From IMG/VR virus record IMGVR_UViG_2537562190_000023: 20,641 nt of DNA, one strand, 5' to 3'. Below the pieces are notes generated by a model. That model was not told the origin of the DNA, searched no databases, and saw nothing but the letters and a program-made list of their open reading frames with translations. Below, in pieces: positions 3,292 to 18,157 of the stretch (positions are counted from its first letter, which is position 1; each line of letters opens with the position of its first letter). A program made the position numbers and the translations under genes. The DNA is from a virus (Duplodnaviria; Heunggongvirae; Uroviricota; Caudoviricetes).

Positions 3292-3653
3292 AAATAAAGG
3301 GATAACGATGATAGTTTGAGAAAAACAGAAATAACACTTTTGTGGCAAAGCATGGTGCCGGGTGCCTCCCGGTGAATTCAGTACCAGCACCTGAATCCGC
3401 GATTATCCCATATACCTGGTTGCTGATTGCCCCTCCGCACAGGGGGATTCACCATGCAGTAGTATTTTTAATAAACAGTAAACAAAAAAATCAAGCATTA
3501 TGCAGGCTGTTTCTTTTTATCACCGGCCACAGCAATACCACAATGCCGCAGACCAGCCCCCATCCGCCAGCACCGACATGATTCTGCTGGTGAAATCCAC
3601 CATCACCACCAGAAACAGCAGGAGTGCAGCCACAGCCAGGCGCAGTTTTACCG

Positions 3654-5075: not shown

Positions 5076-5446
5076 TTTTTGACCTGCCCTTCAAGCATTA
5101 TGGGGTAAATCTTCACCCCCAGACGTCCACCAGATACTGGCTGAGCACGAACGATATTGATTTCATCAAACTGCTCATCGTCCATTAGCAACCCCGCATG
5201 CGTCAGCGCATCCAGCGGCGCTTTCAGAATATTGTCCAGGTCACGGCGGCGCTTATCCGGTGGCTCGGCAATAATCTTTATCGCCAGCCTTCCGGACAGG
5301 CTTAATTTCAGCCGCTGCTGGCGAACAATAAGCGCCACAGCCCGGCGATAACGCTCACCGGCTTTTGATACAAAATATGTGCTGCCACGACGTCGCCAGT
5401 AGGTGTTCACCGTCGGCAGGTAAAGCAAAACAAACTCTATACGCAT
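5072..5446 (-). CDS. rusA: Holliday-junction resolvase RusA
   Basis: 124 aa. Motifs RRRDLDN, LDALT.AG and GGRL, and overall similarity to E. coli RusA (YbcP) as recalled. Start ATG overlaps the upstream stop (TGATG). Confidence 0.8.
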   Translation of the reverse strand: MRIEFVLLYLPTVNTYWRRRGSTYFVSKAGERYRRAVALIVRQQRLKLSLSGRLAIKIIAEPPDKRRRDLDNILKAPLDALTHAGLLMDDEQFDEINIVRAQPVSGGRLGVKIYPIMLEGQVKK

Positions 5447-6507
5447 CAGTAACCTCTTTTACCCGAGCACGCCGGTTGCAAAGGCGTGATCAAGAAAACG
5501 AAAATTAAATCAACCTGGGAACCATGCTTTTCTTCGAACGCCAGCGGATCCGCATGAAGCTCGTTGTGATGCTCCCGACACAGCGGTAGCGTGAAAATAT
5601 CGTGGGATTTTGTTCCCATTCCGCCCTGACCATGACCAATCAGATGATGAGGATCGTCCGCTGGCTTACCACAACACGCACACGGCTGTGTCTTTACCCA
5701 GCGTGTGTATTTCTCATTTACCCAGCGGCGACGTTTAGGTCGTTTCATGAAGGATTCCGGAGACTCCGGATCAACGGCAATGCTGACCACCGTCTTTTCC
5801 TGTGGTGGGTTCTGTTGCTGGTGGGTGTGAGGCGGTAGCGCAATATTTTTTGTGCGCTGCTTCAGTATGCTGGTGGCGGTCTGCTCTCCCGGTACGATGT
5901 CGCTTTCGCGGTACAAGGAGCGGATTTTTTCCACACGTAACCCCAGAGAACGACGTAATACGGCCTCCGGTAGCGCGTCCGCCACCTGATTGCAGACCGC
6001 CCACCAGGATAATTCAGCCAGAGATAATTCACGCTCCTGCGTACCGCTTATTGCGTGACCGATGACGTCAATCATCCATGCTGACAGGTTTTGATGAGCA
6101 AGTTGCTCGAGTGATTCGGATGTCTGGTCCCGTAGCTGGTTGTCGCAGTGCCAGCACAACACCATTGCGCCGGTACCATAACGGTGAATGACAGTTTCGC
6201 TGTGGTGATAATCGCCGTGTGGCCACTGGCAGGATTTAATATGGCGCAACAGCCAGTCAGACAATGCACCAGCACCACCAGCAGCACGAATCACTCGTTC
6301 GTCGCTGAAAAATGGCAGCAATGTTTTGTCTTCCACCAGCGGCTGGCGAACGGCAGGAACGACCCCGGACGGCAGATTACGCATGCTTTTCGGTTCCGGC
6401 TCCACCAGTACCCGGGTATTGTGAAATACCTGCATGGATTCACGACCTGGCTTAAGGACCACCAGCCCGAGTTCCGGTACCAGAACAGGTCGAAGTAATA
6501 CCCGCAC
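5446..6507 (-). CDS. DUF968-type prophage protein (YdfU-like) with a C-terminal HNH-like Cys/His motif
   Basis: 353 aa. C-terminal region KRPKRRRWVNEKYTRWVKTQPCACCGKPADDPHHLIGHGQGGMGTKSHDIFTLPLCREHHNELH matches the DUF968/HNH-like pattern. Start lies 1 bp after the upstream stop. Confidence 0.6.
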   Translation of the reverse strand: MRVLLRPVLVPELGLVVLKPGRESMQVFHNTRVLVEPEPKSMRNLPSGVVPAVRQPLVEDKTLLPFFSDERVIRAAGGAGALSDWLLRHIKSCQWPHGDYHHSETVIHRYGTGAMVLCWHCDNQLRDQTSESLEQLAHQNLSAWMIDVIGHAISGTQERELSLAELSWWAVCNQVADALPEAVLRRSLGLRVEKIRSLYRESDIVPGEQTATSILKQRTKNIALPPHTHQQQNPPQEKTVVSIAVDPESPESFMKRPKRRRWVNEKYTRWVKTQPCACCGKPADDPHHLIGHGQGGMGTKSHDIFTLPLCREHHNELHADPLAFEEKHGSQVDLIFVFLITPLQPACSGKRGY

Positions 6508-7334: not shown

Positions 7335-7490
7335 TTACTCCTCAGGTTCGTAAGCTGTGAAGACAGCGACCTCCGTCTGGCCGGTTCGGATTCGTACCTC
7401 GCAGAGGTCTTTCCTCGTTACCAGTGCCGTCACTATGACGGTTAAACAGATGACGATCAGGGCGATTAACATCGCCTTTTGCTGCTTCAT
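7335..7490 (-). CDS. hok: Hok/Gef-family type I toxin, 51 aa; an in-frame upstream extension to 7547 forms a mok-like leader ORF
   Basis: MKQQKAMLIALIVICLTVIVTALVTRKDLCEVRIRTGQTEVAVFTAYEPEE is a canonical Hok/RelF-type sequence (single TM helix, conserved Cys, acidic C-terminus). The 70-codon ORF 7335-7547 starts at ATG 7547. Confidence 0.85.
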   Translation of the reverse strand: MKQQKAMLIALIVICLTVIVTALVTRKDLCEVRIRTGQTEVAVFTAYEPEE

Positions 7491-7534
7491 AGCCTGCTTC
7501 TCCTTGACCTTTCGGTCCGTAAGAGGCAATCTAT

Positions 7535-7590
7535 ATGTGACGAGCATATAGGGGCCTCACTTCGATTTATAGTCGGGTGGGGCTTTTATC
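7535..7590 (+). ncRNA. Predicted Sok-like antisense RNA overlapping the mok translation-initiation region
   Basis: Plus-strand TTGACC at 7504-7509 could serve as a -35. A possible terminator hairpin (CCUCAC/GUGGGG with one G-U pair, 7556-7582) is followed by CUUUUAUC. The region is antisense to the mok start at 7547. Boundaries are approximate. Confidence 0.3.
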
Positions 7591-7792
7591 TATCTGCCGT
7601 TGGTGTTCATGCCCGAGGCAGATAGCCTCAAGCACCCGCAGCAATTCTACTTAACTCTGCCGTTACAGCAAGCCGTTTTCGTCCGATATGGGAATTCCCA
7701 TATCGGAATGAATTCAGTTCACCTGGCGAGGCTTAGCGTACAATTTTTTCCGTTTTGTGAGCTGCCCCTACATGCCGCTGGCGCGGCATCCG

Positions 7793-7828: not shown

Positions 7829-8587
7829 TCAAGTGCCTTTCCTGGTCCAGCCATATTTTTTGAATGCAGGCGCCGCTTCATCGGTTTGTAGCCATTCTGC
7901 AAATCGACGGGTTTCATCATTTGCATCCTGACGTACTGTAATGTTCATATCACGCCATATCACGTAGTCTGGCGCTATTTCCACGACATCACCAATTTCT
8001 GGATTACTGGCTGCCCAGTCAGCCCAGGTTATCCAGACATCTGCTTCAGGCTGATTCTCAAGAGCCTTACGTGCAGTTCCGCTATTGGGCGCATATAAAA
8101 TAATATTTTTTCGGATTGCGGCGACAGTTTCTATATTCCCTTTACGTCCGGCAATATCTTCCCAGACGCCAGTGCCTGATGTATTACTGGTACCACCACC
8201 ATCATTAACAATTACGCCAATCCCGGGTCTGGTCAGGTCGTCAATACTCCGGATATTTTTAGGATTACCTTTCTTTACCAGTAAAATACTTTTTCGCAGA
8301 TAAAGAGGCTGAATATCTTTTTCACTGAAGCTGTCTTTATGGTCCCGAATGATAGCCAGAGCAGATTGTTCTGATGCGCCAAACAAGATATCTGCATTTT
8401 TTTTGGCATCTTCATTCCATTTGTTCTGTGGGCCGTAATGAACGTTCACTATAATACCTGTTTTTTCGGCATAAAGTTTGGCTGCATCAAGCAAGGCTGT
8501 ATGCGGGCCACCAGGACCATACAGATTGATATCAGCATAAGCAGCAGAAGACAGGAATATTAAAAAACCTGCCATTATGTTCCTCAT
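7829..8587 (-). CDS. Periplasmic substrate-binding protein of the ModA/AcfC-like family, with signal peptide; orphan (no permease or ATPase partner in the window)
   Basis: 252 aa. N-terminal signal peptide MRNIMAGFLIFLSSAAYA. Sequence pattern fits ModA/TupA/AcfC-type binding proteins as recalled. Strong SD AAAAGGAG. The flanks are visibly AT-rich. Confidence 0.7.
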   Translation of the reverse strand: MRNIMAGFLIFLSSAAYADINLYGPGGPHTALLDAAKLYAEKTGIIVNVHYGPQNKWNEDAKKNADILFGASEQSALAIIRDHKDSFSEKDIQPLYLRKSILLVKKGNPKNIRSIDDLTRPGIGVIVNDGGGTSNTSGTGVWEDIAGRKGNIETVAAIRKNIILYAPNSGTARKALENQPEADVWITWADWAASNPEIGDVVEIAPDYVIWRDMNITVRQDANDETRRFAEWLQTDEAAPAFKKYGWTRKGT

Positions 8588-11720: not shown

Positions 11721-12243
11721 ACGAACCCCAGACAGATATTTGTTTATCTGCAAAGTAATGTTGGTATTGCTGACGATACGCACGCTTGAAAGCAATAGCT
11801 TTTTCTATAAGTTCGTCAGTCTCACGTTCCACAACAGCTGGATCCGCAAAAAGTAGCCCTGACTCCACCACATCGCCATATTCTTTGTTTAACCCGGCGA
11901 TCATGTACGTAATGCTTTTTCCGTCAGTAATTTCACGATACAACCTGAAATCACTGATCCGGATAGCCGCCATAATTGCCGGAATCAGCGCCGTGAATTT
12001 TTCCCGCTTATCCCTGGTGTCGATAGATTTCCAGCGTTCGAATATCTTCACCCGGTTAACGCCCAGCGCCCGTTGATCAACCGCGCCATCATCAAACGTG
12101 ACGCGTTGAACATCGATGTTCGGGCGTTCTTTCAGAGCCCAGAATGCTTCCGTGATTAATATCGTCGCCTGCTCCTGTGTCATTCCTGGTCGGCATACCC
12201 AGGCATCCAGAGCCTCACAAACCTGTTCAGGGGTGATTTTCAT
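11692..12243 (-). CDS. YdaT-like protein at the cII position, 183 aa (assignment tentative)
   Basis: ATG at 12243 overlaps the 3' end of the Cro-like gene. Position downstream of the Cro/YdaS-like gene matches the cI-YdaS-YdaT modules of Rac and CP-933P. Sequence identity to YdaT was not verified. Confidence 0.45.
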   Translation of the reverse strand: MKITPEQVCEALDAWVCRPGMTQEQATILITEAFWALKERPNIDVQRVTFDDGAVDQRALGVNRVKIFERWKSIDTRDKREKFTALIPAIMAAIRISDFRLYREITDGKSITYMIAGLNKEYGDVVESGLLFADPAVVERETDELIEKAIAFKRAYRQQYQHYFADKQISVWGSYEYRCATMG

Positions 12244-12454
12244 TGTTCAACCGCCCCGCCCGCTTTGCCTTACGATATTCGTCATAAACTTTGGGGTCGT
12301 ACTGAAGTTCCCCGCCGGATGCCTCTTGCAGGCGCATCGCGCGACCTTCAGGAACCAGTTCCCCCCATGCAGCAATGCTTGCCAACCTAACTCCTGCGGC
12401 ATTGGCAAGCTTTGTTTTGCTGCCAAAAAACGCTATAGCATCAATTTTCAACAT
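12227..12454 (-). CDS. Cro-like small HTH regulator (YdaS family-like), 75 aa
   Basis: Divergent from the repressor. SD AGGAG 6 nt upstream of the ATG. HTH pattern KTKLANAAGVRLASIAAW. Confidence 0.6.
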   Translation of the reverse strand: MLKIDAIAFFGSKTKLANAAGVRLASIAAWGELVPEGRAMRLQEASGGELQYDPKVYDEYRKAKRAGRLNNENHP

Positions 12455-12530: not shown

Positions 12531-12938
12531 ATGAAAAACGAAACCTTCGGTGCTCGCCTCTTACATAGGCGTAAAAAATTAAAACTGTCTCAGGCCGCAT
12601 TAGGTAAGCTGGTCAAAGTGGCTCACGTAACAATTTCTCAATGGGAAAGAGATGAAACACAGCCGGCGGGGAAAAGATTATTCGCACTGAGCCAAGCGCT
12701 TCAGTGCTCACCGACTTGGCTTCTTTTTGGGGATGAAGATAAACAACCAGGCGAACCGATCCCGAATAATCAGCCAGCCATTCTGACAGAAGATCAAAAA
12801 GAGTTACTTCAACTGTTCGACGCACTGCCTGACTCAGAGCAAAAGGCCCTGTTGTCAGAGATGCGTGCTCGAGTTGAAAATTTCAACAAACTTTTTGAAG
12901 AACTACTTAAAGCTCGCAAAAGAAGCGCAAACAAATAA
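12531..12938 (+). CDS. Prophage repressor, XRE-family HTH, 135 aa, no S24 peptidase domain (cI functional analogue)
   Basis: N-terminal HTH (LKLSQAALGKLVKVAHVTISQWERDETQP). Divergent from the Cro-like gene. Flanked on both sides by the same operator motif. Too short to carry a LexA-like autocleavage domain. Confidence 0.75.
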   Translation: MKNETFGARLLHRRKKLKLSQAALGKLVKVAHVTISQWERDETQPAGKRLFALSQALQCSPTWLLFGDEDKQPGEPIPNNQPAILTEDQKELLQLFDALPDSEQKALLSEMRARVENFNKLFEELLKARKRSANK

Positions 12939-13139: not shown

Positions 13140-13295
13140 ATGGATACTATCGATCTTGGCAGCAACGAATCTCTGGTGTACGGCGTGTTCCCAAACCAGG
13201 ACGGCACGTTCACCGCGATGACGTATACCAAAAGCAAAACGTTTAAAACCGAAAATGGTGCCCGTCGCTGGCTGGAAAGAAACTCAGGTGAGTGA
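13140..13295 (+). CDS. Hypothetical early protein, 51 aa
   Basis: ATG at 13140 with GAGG 5 nt upstream. First ORF after the pL-like promoter. The six-frame ORF begins earlier at a GTG. Confidence 0.4.
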   Translation: MDTIDLGSNESLVYGVFPNQDGTFTAMTYTKSKTFKTENGARRWLERNSGE

Positions 13296-13299
13296 TATG

Positions 13300-13407
13300 G
13301 ATTTCGACACAATCATGGAAAAGGCTTACGAAGAATACTTCGAAGACCTTGCCGAAGGCGAAGAGGCTCTCAGCTTCAGTGAGTTTAAACAGGCGCTTTC
13401 CAGTTAG
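13300..13407 (+). CDS. Hypothetical small acidic protein, 35 aa
   Basis: ATG 5 nt after the previous stop. MDFDTIMEKAYEEYFEDLAEGEEALSFSEFKQALSS. Below the ORF-track length cutoff. Confidence 0.3.
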   Translation, partial: DFDTIMEKAYEEYFEDLAEGEEALSFSEFKQALSS

Positions 13408-13454
13408 GCAAAATCTAACGGCTGATAAGCGAAACAGCACCGCGAGGAATCAGT

Positions 13455-13694
13455 ATGCATAAACGAGAACCCGTCATCATCGCGCCAGACTATACCGATG
13501 ATGAACTTTATGAGTGGATGCGCCAGAAAATTAATGCAGCGCAGGATCTGAAATGGGCCAATGAAGCCAGGGCTAAGCAGGCTGAAAAATCTGTCCGCTC
13601 TGGAGCAGGATATCACCAATTTGGAAAAAGCAGCGGCATTAAGCATTGCCAGAATGATTACATACCCGCGTTAATAGCTAACCAACGAGGATAA
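13455..13694 (+). CDS. Hypothetical early protein, 79 aa as read; possible frameshift near 13585
   Basis: Strong SD GAGGAA 5 nt upstream of the ATG. The N-terminal 45 residues look protein-like. After an A5 run the +1 frame encodes a more helical-looking tail (LSALEQDITNLEKAAALSIARMITYPR). Confidence 0.5.
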   Translation: MHKREPVIIAPDYTDDELYEWMRQKINAAQDLKWANEARAKQAEKSVRSGAGYHQFGKSSGIKHCQNDYIPALIANQRG

Positions 13695-13724
13695 GGTTGG
13701 TAATTAAGGAGTTCTCTACGGGTC

Positions 13725-13762
13725 AGGTGGAGTGCGTGCGCCGGACACGGGTGAGCATCCGG
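13725..13762 (+). terminator. Candidate plus-strand intrinsic terminator closing the first early-gene block
   Basis: Bulged hairpin CGTGCGCCGGA / TCCGGCACG (13725-13756) followed by TTCTTT. Confidence 0.4.
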
Positions 13763-13809
13763 CACGTTCTTTAAAAATCTGGATAGTCCCAACTTATTTA
13801 AACGGTTAA

Positions 13810-14154
13810 TTATCTTGAGTTCATCCAGAACTTATTATTGCAAGCGGGGCAAAAAGTACGAAAATGAGCATCAAAGCGCATTATTTCCATTGGTTGCAGT
13901 ACAGATATTACCTTTTTTCCAAAACATTGTGGGCAAAGATGCACTGTTATCTCGGTATCGCCTATAAATTGCTTCTTGGAATACACAAGAGTTCCAGAAT
14001 CAAGCTTGTTAAGTTTGTAACCTTCCGCCTGTTGCTGAAAGTCTTCTATCTCTGCAATTTTTGCTTTGAGAGATGCGGCTTCTTCCTGATAAGAGCGCAC
14101 CATCTCAATGAGCGATACGCATTCAAACTGAACAGACGTAAGTTTTGAAAGCAT
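13810..14154 (-). CDS. Antisense-oriented zinc-ribbon protein, 114 aa (coiled-coil N-terminus, CPQC-x22-CPAC)
   Basis: Protein-like composition with a predicted coiled coil (EEAASLKAKIAEIEDFQQQAEGY) and a C4 zinc ribbon. Lies on the strand opposite to the surrounding early operon, in an AT-rich stretch. No obvious SD before the ATG at 14154. Confidence 0.55.
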   Translation of the reverse strand: MLSKLTSVQFECVSLIEMVRSYQEEAASLKAKIAEIEDFQQQAEGYKLNKLDSGTLVYSKKQFIGDTEITVHLCPQCFGKKVISVLQPMEIMRFDAHFRTFCPACNNKFWMNSR

Positions 14155-14324: not shown

Positions 14325-14806
14325 AATAACAGGAACCACCTCGCCTGACGTGGTTAAAAGCAGGCACACAACGCGAAAGCGTACGGCGAGGTAGCTGGTT
14401 CATAGATAGCCTGTCGTTAAATTTTCGTCGACCGTGCGCTTCCGGTTGTGGCAGTCCGCGAAATGGCGCGGCGGTAAGTATGGCTGGGGTTTCCTCCATT
14501 GCTCCAGAAAATGCACCGGGTTGTCAGGTTGACCATACGCTTAAGTGACAACCCCGCTACAACGCCCTCTGTTATCAATTTTCTGGTGACATTTGGCGGT
14601 ATCAGTTTTACTCCGTGACTGCTCTGCCGCCCTTTTTAAAGTGAATTTTGTGATGCGGTGAATGCGGCTAAGCGCACGCGGAACAGTTAAAACCAAAAAC
14701 AGTGTTATGGGTGGATTCTCTGTATCCGGCGTTAATTGTTAACTGGTTAACGTCACCTGGAGGCACCAGGCACTGCATCACAAAATTCATTGTTGAGGAC
14801 GCGATA

Positions 14807-14995
14807 ATGGAAACGTTATTACCAAACGTTAATACGTCTGAAGGTTGTTTTGATATTGGAGTTCTGCTCAGTAACCGGGAGTTTACTGAAGATGCCATTA
14901 AGATGAGAAAATATGAACCTTATCTTCTTAATGATAATTCCATACTTTCCAGAATTGCCCTTCTTGAACTTGGTATTATCGGAGAACAGCAGTGA
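14807..14995 (+). CDS. Hypothetical protein, 62 aa
   Basis: ATG at 14807 with SD GAGGA 7 nt upstream. The six-frame ORF starts at an upstream GTG. Confidence 0.4.
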   Translation: METLLPNVNTSEGCFDIGVLLSNREFTEDAIKMRKYEPYLLNDNSILSRIALLELGIIGEQQ

Positions 14996-15272: not shown

Positions 15273-16874
15273 ATGAACGCTGATAAAGAAGAAATTGCAC
15301 TATATTACGAAGCCAAAAATGACAAAGTCAGAAAACGCCTTGGGATTAAAGGTGGTTTTTACTGGCGCACAGCAAAAAAATTATCGGTTGCAATATCACG
15401 TGGTGTTGCTGCAATGGACGATGCCGGATTTGACGAAGAGGATTTTAAAAAACCCATCCGCGTCCATTTACCCGTTGTGAATGACCTTCCACCGGAAGGT
15501 GTGTTTGATACTGAATTCTGCAACCGATACGAAAAAGGCGGAGAAGATGGTATCACAATGATACTTATCGCGCCCTCTGTTCCGGACAAACCAGCCAGTA
15601 CTGACAATACCAACGTCAACGGCGAAGACATGGCTAAGATTGAGGAGAATATGCTTCTTCCGGTTTCAGGTCAGATTCTGCCTGTTCGCTGGCTGGCGCA
15701 ACACAACAGCGAAAAACCGCTCACGCACGTTTCACTGGACAAACTGCGCGCATTACATAACGCACAGGATGAAAAACTTCCCGCCGTTACCGCGCTGGCC
15801 ATCTCAAATAAAGCAGTGCAACTCGAACCGCTGGAGCTTCGGGATTTGTACAAACTGGTGCGAGACACTGACAAAGTTTTCCCCGCCCCCGTAAATTCGG
15901 ACCTGGGACTGATGACCTCTTTTATCGAAGCATACCTGGGCGCTGACTACACCGATCGCGGTCTGCTTACAAAAGAGTGGATGAAAGGAAATCGTGTTTC
16001 ACGCATCAGCCGCACGCCATCCGGCGCTAACGCTGGCGGCGGCATTCTTACCGATCGCGGCGAAGGTTTTGTCCACGATGATGCGTCAGTGGCGCGTGAC
16101 GTAGCCACTGGCGTACTGGCCCGTTCAATGGACGTGGATATTTATAACCTTCATCCCGCGCACGCTAAACGCATTGAGGAAATTATCGCTGAAAATAAAC
16201 CGCCATTTTCTGTGTTTTTCAGCAAATTCATCACCATGCCGGGCCACAAGGATTACTCCCGCGCCATCGTGGTTGCGTCCGTGAAAGAAGCACCAATTGG
16301 TATAGAGGCTACTCCCCACCGTGTCACCGAATACCTGAATAAGGTGCTGACTGAAACCGATCATGCCACCCCTGATCCGGAAATCGTGGATATTGCCTGT
16401 GGTCGCTCCTCTGCCCCGATGCCGCAGCGTGTAACAAAAGAAGGAAAACAGGATGATGAAGAAAAACCGCAGCCATCTGGCGCAATGGCAGATGAACAGG
16501 CAACGACTGAAGCAGTGGAACCGGATACAACTGAACATAATCAGGACACGCAGTCGATGGATGCTCAGCCACAGATAAATTCTGTTGATGCGAAATATCA
16601 GAAACTGCGTGCAGAACTCCATGAAGCCAAGAAAAACATTCCACCCAAAAATCCTGTCGATGCAGATAAATTACTGGCTGCTTCTCGAGGAGAATTTGTT
16701 GAAGGGATTAGCGACCCGAATGATCCAAAATGGGTGAAGGGGATCCAGAGTCGCGATGATGATGACCAGAATCAGGATAAAGCGGAACAAAACAGCCCAA
16801 ATGCGTTACAAAACGAGCCAAAAACAAAACAACCTGAACCGCCCCGGGTTTCCTGGAGAGTGTTTTATCTGTGA
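15273..16874 (+). pseudogene. RecE-like protein, N-terminal fragment truncated by IS629 insertion (last 13 codons and stop are IS-derived)
   Basis: ATG at 15273 with SD GAGG. Long stretches resemble the N-terminal region of Rac RecE as recalled (for example [80 protein letters not shown]). The frame enters the IS at 16835 and stops at 16872-16874. Confidence 0.8.
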
Positions 16875-16876
16875 AC

Positions 16877-17764
16877 TCAGGCTGCCAGATCATCGTTTCC
16901 GATGGAAGCATAATAAGCTTTTTCTGCTTCTGCCGGGGGAGTATGGCCCAGCCTTTCCAGCAATCGTCGATTGTTATACCAGTCCACCCACGTGAGTGTG
17001 GCCAGTTCCACTTCTGCACGGTTTTTCCAGCTCTTACGGTGTATTACCTCCGCTTTGTAAAGACCATTGATGCTCTCCGCCATCGCGTTGTCATACGAGT
17101 CGCCAGTACTCCCTGTTGATGCCAGTAATCCGGCTTCCTTAAGCCGCTGCGTGTAGGCCAGCGATACATACTGAGAACCTTTATCACTGTGATGGATTGT
17201 GCCGGACGGCCGACGGGCCCACAACGCCTGCTCCAGTGCATCCAGCACGAATGTTGTTTCCATGGATGATGAGACCTGCCATCCCACGATGTATCCGGCG
17301 AACACATCAATGATGAACGCCACATAAACGAAGCCCTGCCATGTGCTTACCCAGGTAAAATCAGCCACCCACAACTGGTCTGGACGTTCTGCCACGAACT
17401 GACGGTTTACGCGGTCGCATGCGGCAACGGCTTTCCGGCTGACGGTAGTGCGGACCTTTTTACCCCGGAGAACACCGGCAAGTCCCATAACCGCCATGAG
17501 ACGTGCCACAGTGCATCTGGCCACTCTGATACCTTCCCGTAACAACTGACGCCAGACTTTACGCACACCGTATACCTTGTGATTTTCATCGTATACGCGC
17601 TGTATCTCTTTCTTCAGCCAGTCATCGCGCTGCGCACGGGCACTGCGTTTATCCGGATAATGTCGCTGTTGCTGACAGTGGTAATACGTTGACGGGGCAA
17701 TATGCAGTTCGCTGCATACCGGTCCGACCCCGTACTGCTCACGCAGCTTATCCAGCAGTGGCAT
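16877..17764 (-). CDS. IS629 transposase OrfB (DDE catalytic domain)
   Basis: 295 aa beginning [29 protein letters not shown] and ending ASIGNDDLAA, matching IS629 OrfB as recalled. ATG overlaps the orfA stop (TAATG). Confidence 0.9.
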   Translation of the reverse strand: MPLLDKLREQYGVGPVCSELHIAPSTYYHCQQQRHYPDKRSARAQRDDWLKKEIQRVYDENHKVYGVRKVWRQLLREGIRVARCTVARLMAVMGLAGVLRGKKVRTTVSRKAVAACDRVNRQFVAERPDQLWVADFTWVSTWQGFVYVAFIIDVFAGYIVGWQVSSSMETTFVLDALEQALWARRPSGTIHHSDKGSQYVSLAYTQRLKEAGLLASTGSTGDSYDNAMAESINGLYKAEVIHRKSWKNRAEVELATLTWVDWYNNRRLLERLGHTPPAEAEKAYYASIGNDDLAA

Positions 17765-18090
17765 TATTTTTTCCAGAGGCGGTCGAACTCCGCCTTCGCA
17801 AAATAAGCGGAAGCCTGGCGAAGGATATCGTTACTGCGGCGCAGTTCACGATTTTCACGTTCCAGCTCTTTCAGACGCTGACGTTCAGCGGTGGTGAGTC
17901 CACCATCACCACTCCCGGTATCCCGCTCATGCTGGCGAACCCAGACACGCAGAGTCTCCGGCGTACAGCCAATCTTTGGGGCAATGGAACAAATTGCCGC
18001 CCACTGTGAGTCATATTCATCCTGACTTTCCAGAACCATACGAATCGCCCGCTGACGGACTTCGGGGGAAAAACGAGTATTTTTAGTCAT
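17764..18090 (-). CDS. IS629 transposase OrfA (HTH / leucine-zipper part)
   Basis: 108 aa [59 protein letters not shown]..., matching IS629 OrfA as recalled. An A6 run sits at the orfA/orfB junction, where IS3-family -1 frameshifting occurs. Confidence 0.9.
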
Positions 18091-18157
18091 CCTGTTTACC
18101 TCTTTCTCAGGGAGTTTAGTCTCCAGGATTTCCGGGGCGGTTCAACCTGAACCAGTA

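What the first reader, a model, noticed from the sequence alone, without database searches (positions are those of the whole stretch)
13455..13694. Possible frameshift or slippery site in an early gene
After the A5 run at about 13585 the annotated frame continues as SVRSGAGYHQFGKSSGIKHCQNDYIPALIANQRG, while the +1 frame gives a more helical-looking LKNLSALEQDITNLEKAAALSIARMITYPR and ends at 13670. This could be a frameshift mutation, a sequencing error in the homopolymer, or programmed slippage.
Basis: seen in the sequence. Interest (0 to 1): 0.3.

Follow-up and report, generated by a model that had tools for sequence, protein, structure and literature searches.

The report
Frameshifted ydfC prophage pseudogene
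One extra A in a short run of A's has broken the small prophage gene ydfC in the E. coli O103:H2/O45:H2 lineage; this is an ordinary inherited frameshift that RefSeq already flags, not programmed slippage or a sequencing error.

Summary
The ORF at 13455-13694 is ydfC, a small gene of unknown function in the ydfA-ydfB-ydfC-dicF-dicB operon of a Qin-like lambdoid prophage.

- **The mutation.** The run at 13585-13589 is A5. About 3,000 other complete E. coli genomes carrying ydfC do not have this A5 allele, and every sequence aligned has A4. Removing one A restores the canonical 72-aa YdfC ending ...ARMITYPR.
- **Which frame is real.** The +1 frame is the one conserved. The phage family profile phrog_1744 matches positions 1-68 of the repaired protein but only 1-44 of the 79-aa product. 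Homologues down to 26% identity keep the +1-frame C-terminus. The "annotated" frame contains stop codons in divergent homologues.
- **Not a sequencing error.** The A5 allele is in exactly 15 of 5,426 complete genomes, all carrying this same prophage. The exact 79-aa product occurs on at least 1,000 contigs.
- **Derived state.** Two sister prophages have A4.
- **Not programmed slippage.** There is no recognised slippery motif, no downstream RNA structure (z = +1.2), and the A5 arrangement is absent from related ydfC genes outside this prophage lineage.

RefSeq already annotates this gene as "frameshifted". An independent A5-to-A6 frameshift at the second A-run occurs in 85 other genomes. Interest is low.

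The parts
13455..13586 (+). ydfC codons 1-44 (MHKREPVIIAPDYTDDELYEWMRQKINAAQDLKWANEARAKQAE), in the original reading frame
   Evidence: Matches phrog_1744 positions 1-44. It is identical to intact YdfC of the sister prophage. RefSeq annotates ydfC here.
13585..13589 (+). A5 homopolymer: the frameshift site, with one A inserted relative to the A4 of the other ydfC alleles
   Evidence: Shown by the alignment. Of 3,023 genomes with ydfC, only 15 match the A5 allele at 99% or better. A 45-nt probe that can seed only on A5 hits 15 of 5,426 genomes.
13588..13674 (+). ydfC codons 45-72 plus stop (NLSALEQDITNLEKAAALSIARMITYPR*), now in the +1 frame and no longer translated from the ydfC start
   Evidence: The repaired translation equals the canonical 72-aa YdfC, a sequence found on 343 contigs. 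It matches phrog_1744 positions 45-68. The segment is conserved in homologues down to 26% identity and is predicted to be part of one continuous helix, residues 15-69.
13587..13694 (+). Out-of-frame tail of the 79-aa product (KSVRSGAGYHQFGKSSGIKHCQNDYIPALIANQRG*); its stop lies 20 nt beyond the normal one
   Evidence: Translation. There is no family match beyond residue 44. This frame carries stops in divergent homologues. The AlphaFold2 model gives pLDDT about 47-50 and no secondary structure after residue 47.
13140..13295 (+). ydfA (DUF1391), first gene of the operon
   Evidence: Pfam PF07151 at 1.3e-26 and RefSeq annotation.
13297..13425 (+). ydfB, with a premature TAG at 13405-13407 (codon 37 of 42)
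   Evidence: The nonsense codon is shared with the sister prophage in strain 377323_2f.
14581..14632 (+). dicF small RNA, downstream in the same operon
   Evidence: Rfam RF00039, 77 bits, E = 9e-16.
14807..14995 (+). dicB cell-division inhibitor gene
   Evidence: RefSeq annotation of the near-identical record.

Best explanation
The 240-nt ORF is ydfC, the third small gene of the ydfA-ydfB-ydfC-dicF-dicB early-left operon of a Qin-like lambdoid prophage. It carries a fixed +1-nucleotide insertion. Slipped-strand mispairing during replication lengthened an A4 run to A5 at 13585-13589; that cause is inferred. Ribosomes starting at the ydfC ATG therefore read 44 correct residues, then a Lys and 34 out-of-frame residues, and stop 20 nt later than normal.

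The conserved C-terminal half of the single long YdfC helix is lost, so the gene is most probably inactivated. Loss of function is inferred, because the function of YdfC is unknown. The mutation arose once in the ancestor of this prophage in the O103:H2/O45:H2 Shiga-toxin E. coli lineage and has been inherited stably. It is part of the general decay of a resident prophage, not a regulatory device.
For: **Identity of the gene**
- The region is 100% identical to ydfC of O103:H2 str. 12009 and 14 other genomes.
- The operon context is ydfA (DUF1391), ydfB, dicF (Rfam, 77 bits) and dicB.

**Insertion**
- The alignment shows A5 against A4 with no other indel.
- The repaired translation is the 72-aa YdfC.

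**Which frame is real**
- phrog_1744 matches positions 1-68 of 68 at 135 bits for the repaired protein, and only 1-44 at 89 bits for the 79-aa product.
- Six homologues at 54-100% identity all keep the +1 frame open. The other frame has stops in the four most divergent of them.
- Homologues at 26-55% identity keep the L46/I53/L56/AAL60-62 pattern.
- AlphaFold2 predicts one helix over residues 15-69 at pLDDT above 90. In the 79-aa product the helix ends at residue 47 and the tail has low confidence.

**Real and inherited**
- Exactly 15 of 5,426 complete genomes carry A5, and all 15 carry this same prophage.
- The exact 79-aa product is on at least 1,000 contigs.

**Derived state**
- The two nearest sister prophages, about 98.3% identical over 86% of the window, have A4 and an otherwise identical ydfC.

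**Decay context**
- ydfB carries a nonsense codon.
- RefSeq marks other pseudogenes in the prophage.
- An IS element interrupts the exonuclease gene.
- A separate A5-to-A6 frameshift of ydfC occurs in 85 other genomes, also annotated 'frameshifted'.
- Further indel variants are present in the protein collection.

**Existing annotation**
- RefSeq/PGAP already annotates the gene as 'ydfC, frameshifted'.
Against: - Loss of function is not demonstrated. YdfC has no known function, and the most conserved part of the family, residues 1-33, is retained, so a partial activity cannot be excluded.
- The frameshifted ORF stays open for 35 codons and ends close to the normal stop, so the product could be stable.
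- I did not determine whether the second ydfC-like copy seen in 11 of the 15 genomes is intact.
Confidence: 0.93

Rival explanations
1. Programmed recoding. Ribosomes would shift +1 at GAA AAA U, or RNA polymerase would slip on the A5 run, so that the lineage still makes full-length YdfC, perhaps in a regulated ratio with the 79-aa form.
For: Both frames are open across the site and a homopolymer lies exactly at the junction. The allele has been stably kept on at least 1,000 contigs.
Against: **No suitable motif**
- Restoring YdfC needs a +1 shift.
- The site has no rare or stop codon in the A site and no strong Shine-Dalgarno sequence placed as in prfB. This comparison rests on established knowledge of prfB-type sites.
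- A -1 slip on A AAA A would lead into the third frame, which stops after 18 codons.

**No stimulatory structure**
- The 106 nt around and after the site fold less stably than shuffled sequences: z = +1.21, with 182 of 200 shuffles folding at least as well.

**Run too short**
- Five A's is well below the run length of about 8 or more known to give efficient transcriptional slippage (established knowledge).

**Not conserved**
- A5 is confined to 15 of about 3,023 ydfC-bearing complete genomes, while the other ydfC sequences examined, including the closest relatives, encode the protein in one frame.
- Other lineages carry frameshifts at different positions and of both signs, as expected for random indels.
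Confidence: 0.02
2. Sequencing or assembly error in a homopolymer. The real genome would have A4 and an intact ydfC.
For: Homopolymer-length errors are common in some sequencing chemistries. The difference is a single base in an A-run.
Against: The identical A5 allele is found in 15 separately sequenced complete genomes from different laboratories, sources and years. The exact 79-aa translation is recorded on at least 1,000 contigs. A run of five is short for systematic homopolymer error. The allele tracks one prophage lineage and is absent from its A4 sister prophages, which is a phylogenetic pattern and not a random one.
Confidence: 0.01
3. The mutation is real, but the 79-aa variant is a functional or even selected allele. 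Either it keeps activity through the conserved N-terminal 44 residues with a new tail, or loss of the YdfC C-terminus is advantageous, which would explain recurrent frameshifts.
For: The N-terminal segment is the most conserved part of the family. Independent +1 insertions at two different A-runs give the same 79-aa length and tail, and are found in 15 and 85 complete genomes. The allele is abundant in surveillance assemblies.
Against: - All +1-nt insertions necessarily fall into the same frame and share its stop, so the common 79-aa length is not evidence of selection.
- That frame has no start codon of its own and contains stops in divergent homologues.
- The tail is predicted to be unstructured.
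- -1-type variants with early stops also occur (P0095 and P0100).
- Abundance reflects clonal expansion and heavy sampling of Shiga-toxin strains.
- The neighbouring genes are also decaying.
Confidence: 0.05

Closest known systems
ydfC of the E. coli K-12 Qin cryptic prophage (ydfABC-dicF-dicB-ydfD, the 'dicBF operon')
   Same: It has the same gene order and neighbours (DicC/Cro-like and DicA-like regulators, ydfA, ydfB, ydfC, dicF, dicB). DNA identity is about 97%. The repaired product is a 72-aa YdfC. The function is unknown, as stated in PMC5069750.
   Different: This copy has A5 instead of A4 at codons 44-45 and so encodes a 79-aa frameshift product. About 900 nt, including a 114-aa gene on the opposite strand, lie between ydfC and dicF, whereas PMC9438474 describes DicF in K-12 as derived from the ydfC 3' UTR. 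ydfB is also truncated.
RefSeq pseudogene ECO103_RS08985 ('protein YdfC, frameshifted') in E. coli O103:H2 str. 12009 (NC_013353.1)
   Same: The ydfC region is identical in sequence. This is the same allele, already annotated as a frameshifted pseudogene.
   Different: The window comes from another isolate of the lineage. It differs from 12009 by 6 substitutions, one 1-nt indel and a 1.3-kb IS insertion elsewhere.
Programmed frameshift sites (prfB-type +1; dnaX/IS3-type -1 on A AAA AAG with a downstream pseudoknot)
   Same: A homopolymeric A tract sits at the junction of two open frames.
   Different: The site has no conserved slippery heptamer for the required direction and no stimulatory Shine-Dalgarno sequence or structure. 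Homologues outside this prophage lineage use a single frame. A genuine IS3-type site, by contrast, is present elsewhere in the window (ALIL pseudoknot, 120 bits).

Membership tests
YdfC family (phrog_1744; RefSeq 'protein YdfC') | Sequence match to the family profile over its whole length | tested here: met
   The match is met only when the two frames are joined. The repaired protein matches positions 1-68 of 68 at E = 1.1e-39. The 79-aa product as encoded matches positions 1-44 only.
YdfC family (phrog_1744; RefSeq 'protein YdfC') | Position downstream of ydfA/ydfB and upstream of dicF/dicB, next to a DicA/DicC-type switch | tested here: met
   The same arrangement is seen in homologous loci L005-L010.
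Frameshifted pseudogene | An indel relative to intact orthologues, with the downstream part of the protein conserved in another frame | tested here: met
   A5 against A4. The +1 frame equals the conserved C-terminus. PGAP flags the gene as 'frameshifted'.
Programmed ribosomal frameshifting | The two-frame arrangement and slippery motif are conserved among homologues | tested here: not met
   Only 15 of about 3,023 ydfC-bearing complete genomes have the A5 allele. Close and distant homologues that were aligned are single-frame.
Programmed ribosomal frameshifting | A stimulatory element (downstream structure or upstream Shine-Dalgarno sequence) at the proper spacing | tested here: not met
   The fold of 13575-13680 gives z = +1.21 against shuffles. 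By inspection, only an AGG that forms part of the conserved codons K-Q-A lies upstream.
Programmed ribosomal frameshifting | A measurable shifted product in vivo | not testable with these tools
   This needs a reporter assay or proteomics.
Phase-variable homopolymer / transcriptional slippage tract | A long tract (typically 7-9 nt or more) with length polymorphism among close relatives | tested here: not met
   The tract is 5 nt. All 15 complete genomes carrying this lineage's prophage have A5, and the exact product is on at least 1,000 contigs.

The most novel reading that the evidence does not exclude
Recurrent homopolymer frameshifts that remove the C-terminal half of YdfC might be selected rather than neutral. 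The evidence is A4-to-A5 in the O103:H2/O45:H2 lineage, A5-to-A6 in 85 other complete genomes including ABU 83972, and several rarer indels. Either the C-terminal helix would be costly to the host when the dicBF operon leaks, or the 79-aa form would have acquired an activity of its own.
Probability: 0.05. Interest if true: 0.25.

Novelty: already known. Interest (0 to 1): 0.05.

Why it matters
It matters little beyond annotation. The 79-aa "hypothetical protein" or "prophage protein" entries in public databases are frameshift products of ydfC and should not be treated as a separate protein family. The result also illustrates how small, normally repressed genes of resident prophages decay through indels in short homopolymers. 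The allele could serve as a marker for this prophage in the O103:H2/O45:H2 lineage.

Tried and rejected
- **Library searches with no result.** Pfam and NCBIfam hold no model for YdfC, so they gave nothing useful for either frame. Only a sub-threshold NCBIfam hit appeared. The PDB sequence search found nothing.
- **Fold search skipped.** The AlphaFold2 model is a single helix, and matches to a lone helix would be meaningless.
- **Codon-position test uninformative.** Substitution counts for the C-terminal part were 147/96/131 at codon positions 1/2/3. The homologues used are too divergent at the protein level. The argument rests instead on frame openness and on residue and profile conservation.
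- **Independent overlapping gene rejected.** The alternative frame has a TGA immediately upstream in the A4 allele, no ATG, GTG or TTG start inside it, and stops in divergent homologues.
- **Antisense ORF rejected.** The 80-aa ORF at 13404-13646 has no supporting evidence and was not pursued.
- **Second ydfC copy not located.** The search tool lists only one place per record, so I could not find the second ydfC-like copy present in 11 of the 15 A5 genomes. One search shows only that it does not carry the A5 allele.

Full report
**1. What is in the sequence**

The ORF at 13455-13694 starts with ATG and encodes 79 aa. A run of five A's lies at 13585-13589.

- Frame 0 after the run reads KSVRSGAGYHQFGKSSGIKHCQNDYIPALIANQRG and stops at TAA 13692-13694.
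- The +1 frame reads NLSALEQDITNLEKAAALSIARMITYPR and stops at TAA 13672-13674.

**2. What the gene is**

A megablast of 13300-13800 against 5,426 complete E. coli genomes hits 3,741 genomes. The feature under the match is everywhere 'ydfC: protein YdfC'. The context in the window matches the dicBF operon of the Qin-type defective lambdoid prophage described in PMC5069750 and PMC9438474:

| Feature | Coordinates | Evidence |
|---|---|---|
| P22-Cro/DicC-like gene | 12227-12454 (-) | |
| DicA-like helix-turn-helix gene | 12531-12938 (+) | |
| ydfA (DUF1391) | 13140-13295 | |
| ydfB | 13297-13425 | |
| ydfC | 13455-13694 | |
| dicF | 14581-14632 | Rfam, 77 bits, |
| dicB | 14807-14995 | |
| exonuclease, xis, int | downstream | |

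In those papers ydfA, ydfB and ydfC are small genes of unknown function. No later paper in the library gives YdfC a native function.

The window is nearly identical to E. coli O103:H2 str. 12009. It differs by 6 substitutions, one 1-nt indel and a 1.3-kb IS insertion, none of them in ydfC.

**3. The frameshift is a 1-nt insertion relative to the other ydfC alleles**

- Aligning the window with O103:H2 12009, strain 377323_2f and GB089 shows one indel only, A5 against A4.
- With an 81-nt query centred on the run, 3,023 genomes match. Only 15 reach 99% identity or more. The non-A5 hits listed are one base shorter in the record.
- A 45-nt probe that can seed a megablast word only if the run is A5 hits exactly 15 of 5,426 genomes, once each.
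- Deleting one A yields MHKREPVIIAPDYTDDELYEWMRQKINAAQDLKWANEARAKQAENLSALEQDITNLEKAAALSIARMITYPR. This 72-aa sequence exists in public data as 'protein YdfC' on 343 contigs.

**4. Which frame is conserved**

- The PHROG profile phrog_1744 (68 positions) matches the repaired protein over 1-68 (135 bits, E = 1e-39). It matches the encoded 79-aa product only over 1-44 (89 bits).
- I fetched DNA for homologues of 54-75% protein identity and made a codon alignment. The canonical frame is open in all six sequences. The window's 'annotated' continuation frame has stop codons in P0037, P0063, P0082 and P0091.
- A profile search of 1.84 billion representative proteins found 96 relatives. Most align across profile positions 1-64/66, that is, through and well beyond the frameshift point.
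- In an alignment with relatives of 26-55% identity, the C-terminal pattern L46, I53, L56 and A60-A61-L62 is kept by the family and lost in the window's product from column 45 on.
- AlphaFold2 with the family alignment predicts one continuous helix over residues 15-69, with pLDDT above 90 for 50 residues.
- For the 79-aa product, the helix ends at residue 47 and the tail has pLDDT about 47-50. That was a single-sequence run, so it is only indicative.

**5. Mutation, error or programmed event?**

*Sequencing error* is excluded for practical purposes. The same allele is in 15 separately assembled complete genomes: O103:H2, O45:H2, and one isolate labelled O121. They come from humans, cattle, veal and pork. 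The exact 79-aa translation is recorded on at least 1,000 contigs, where sources call it 'hypothetical protein' or 'prophage protein'.

*The state is derived.* The whole 20.6-kb window is found at 80% coverage or more in 17 genomes. These are the 15 A5 genomes plus 377323_2f and EC12, whose prophage is about 98.3% identical. Strain 377323_2f was aligned and has A4 with an otherwise identical ydfC. EC12 matches the ydfC region at 99.8% over a 500-base span, consistent with the same single-base difference.

*Programmed recoding* is not supported.

- Restoring YdfC needs a +1 shift at GAA AAA U.
- The site has no stop or rare codon and no positioned Shine-Dalgarno sequence as in prfB (comparison from established knowledge).
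- A -1 slip, which the A-run could allow, leads to the third frame, which ends after 18 codons.
- The downstream RNA is less structured than shuffled controls, z = +1.21.
- Five A's is too short for efficient transcriptional slippage (established knowledge).
- The arrangement is absent from the other ydfC alleles and more distant homologues examined.

RefSeq/PGAP annotates the locus as 'ydfC, pseudogene, frameshifted' in strain 12009.

**6. Wider pattern**

ydfC is hit repeatedly by indels.

- The protein collection holds 79-aa variants that shift at other points, for example LEK|SSGIK at the second A-run (P0032, P0033) and LEQ|RYHQ (P0057, P0064).
- It also holds the same first-run shift in other backgrounds (P0076, P0081), -1-type variants with early stops (P0095, P0100), and a double-shift variant (P0065).
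- A probe specific for A6 at the second run (window 13625-13629 is A5) hits 85 complete genomes in at least two sequence backgrounds, including ABU 83972. The two I opened are also annotated 'frameshifted'.

All +1-nt insertions fall into the same frame and use the same stop, which explains the recurrent length of 79 aa without invoking selection.

The surrounding prophage is also decaying.

- ydfB has a nonsense codon.
- RefSeq marks a TerB-family gene and a fimbrial gene as pseudogenes.
- In this isolate an IS3-family element interrupts the exonuclease gene.

**7. Mechanism and consequence**

| Claim | Status |
|---|---|
| One-A insertion at the run | shown |
| Altered reading frame from codon 45 | shown |
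| Stop moved 20 nt downstream | shown |
| Loss of the conserved C-terminal half of the helix | shown |
| Insertion arose by replication slippage at the run | inferred |
| Insertion arose once in the ancestor of this prophage lineage | inferred |
| The product is non-functional | inferred |

Polarity on dicF and dicB should be negligible, because translation ends only 20 nt later than normal (inference). Eleven of the 15 genomes hold a second ydfC-like sequence that lacks the A5 allele. I did not determine its state.

**8. Verdict**

The alternatives of sequencing error and programmed slippage are not supported. This is an already-annotated frameshifted pseudogene of a small prophage gene of unknown function. 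It is already known and of low interest.

Noticed in passing
window 13297-13425 (stop at 13405-13407): ydfB has TCG changed to TAG at codon 37, shortening YdfB from 42 to 36 aa. The same nonsense codon is in the sister prophage of strain 377323_2f, which has an intact ydfC, so it predates the ydfC frameshift. RefSeq does not annotate ydfB in these genomes.
   Followed up: yes
window 16841-18142, minus strand (orfA 17764-18090, orfB 16877-17764, ALIL pseudoknot 17693-17809): An IS3-family insertion sequence of about 1.3 kb is absent from O103:H2 str. 12009. It has terminal inverted repeats TGAACCGCCCCGG... and interrupts the RecE-like exonuclease gene, so that ORF ends at 16874 instead of running on to the normal end. 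It carries a genuine programmed -1 frameshift element (Rfam ALIL, 120 bits) at the orfA/orfB overlap.
   Followed up: partly
equivalent of window 13625-13629 in other genomes (e.g. L012 and L013, 401-446): An independent ydfC frameshift, A5 to A6 at the second A-run, is present in 85 of 5,426 complete E. coli genomes, including ABU 83972 and O25:H4 strains. The two I opened are annotated 'frameshifted'.
   Followed up: yes
window 13810-14154, minus strand: A 114-aa gene of unknown function (phrog_1244, E = 3.5e-38) with two Cys pairs (CPQC and CPAC) sits on the opposite strand between ydfC and dicF. By contrast, PMC9438474 describes DicF in K-12 as derived from the ydfC 3' UTR. It looks like an inserted extra gene; different prophages carry different genes at this spot.
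   Followed up: partly
window about 5496-5504 (L004 5499-5503): This is another homopolymer-length difference within the lineage: the window has A4 where strain 12009 has A5, near the 3' end of the DUF968 gene on the minus strand. The ORF is 353 aa here (5446-6507) against 349 aa in 12009 (5458-6507).
   Followed up: partly
window 7335-7637 (minus strand) and 3317-3483 (minus strand): A hokD/sok type I toxin-antitoxin locus is present (Rfam sok, 104 bits), along with an STnc100 small-RNA match (102 bits), in the late and Q-antiterminator region of the prophage.
   Followed up: no
window 7829-8587, minus strand: The prophage carries paa (AcfC-family adhesin Paa), a virulence-associated cargo gene. 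Next to it is a fimbrial-protein pseudogene (RefSeq annotation of the near-identical record).
   Followed up: no
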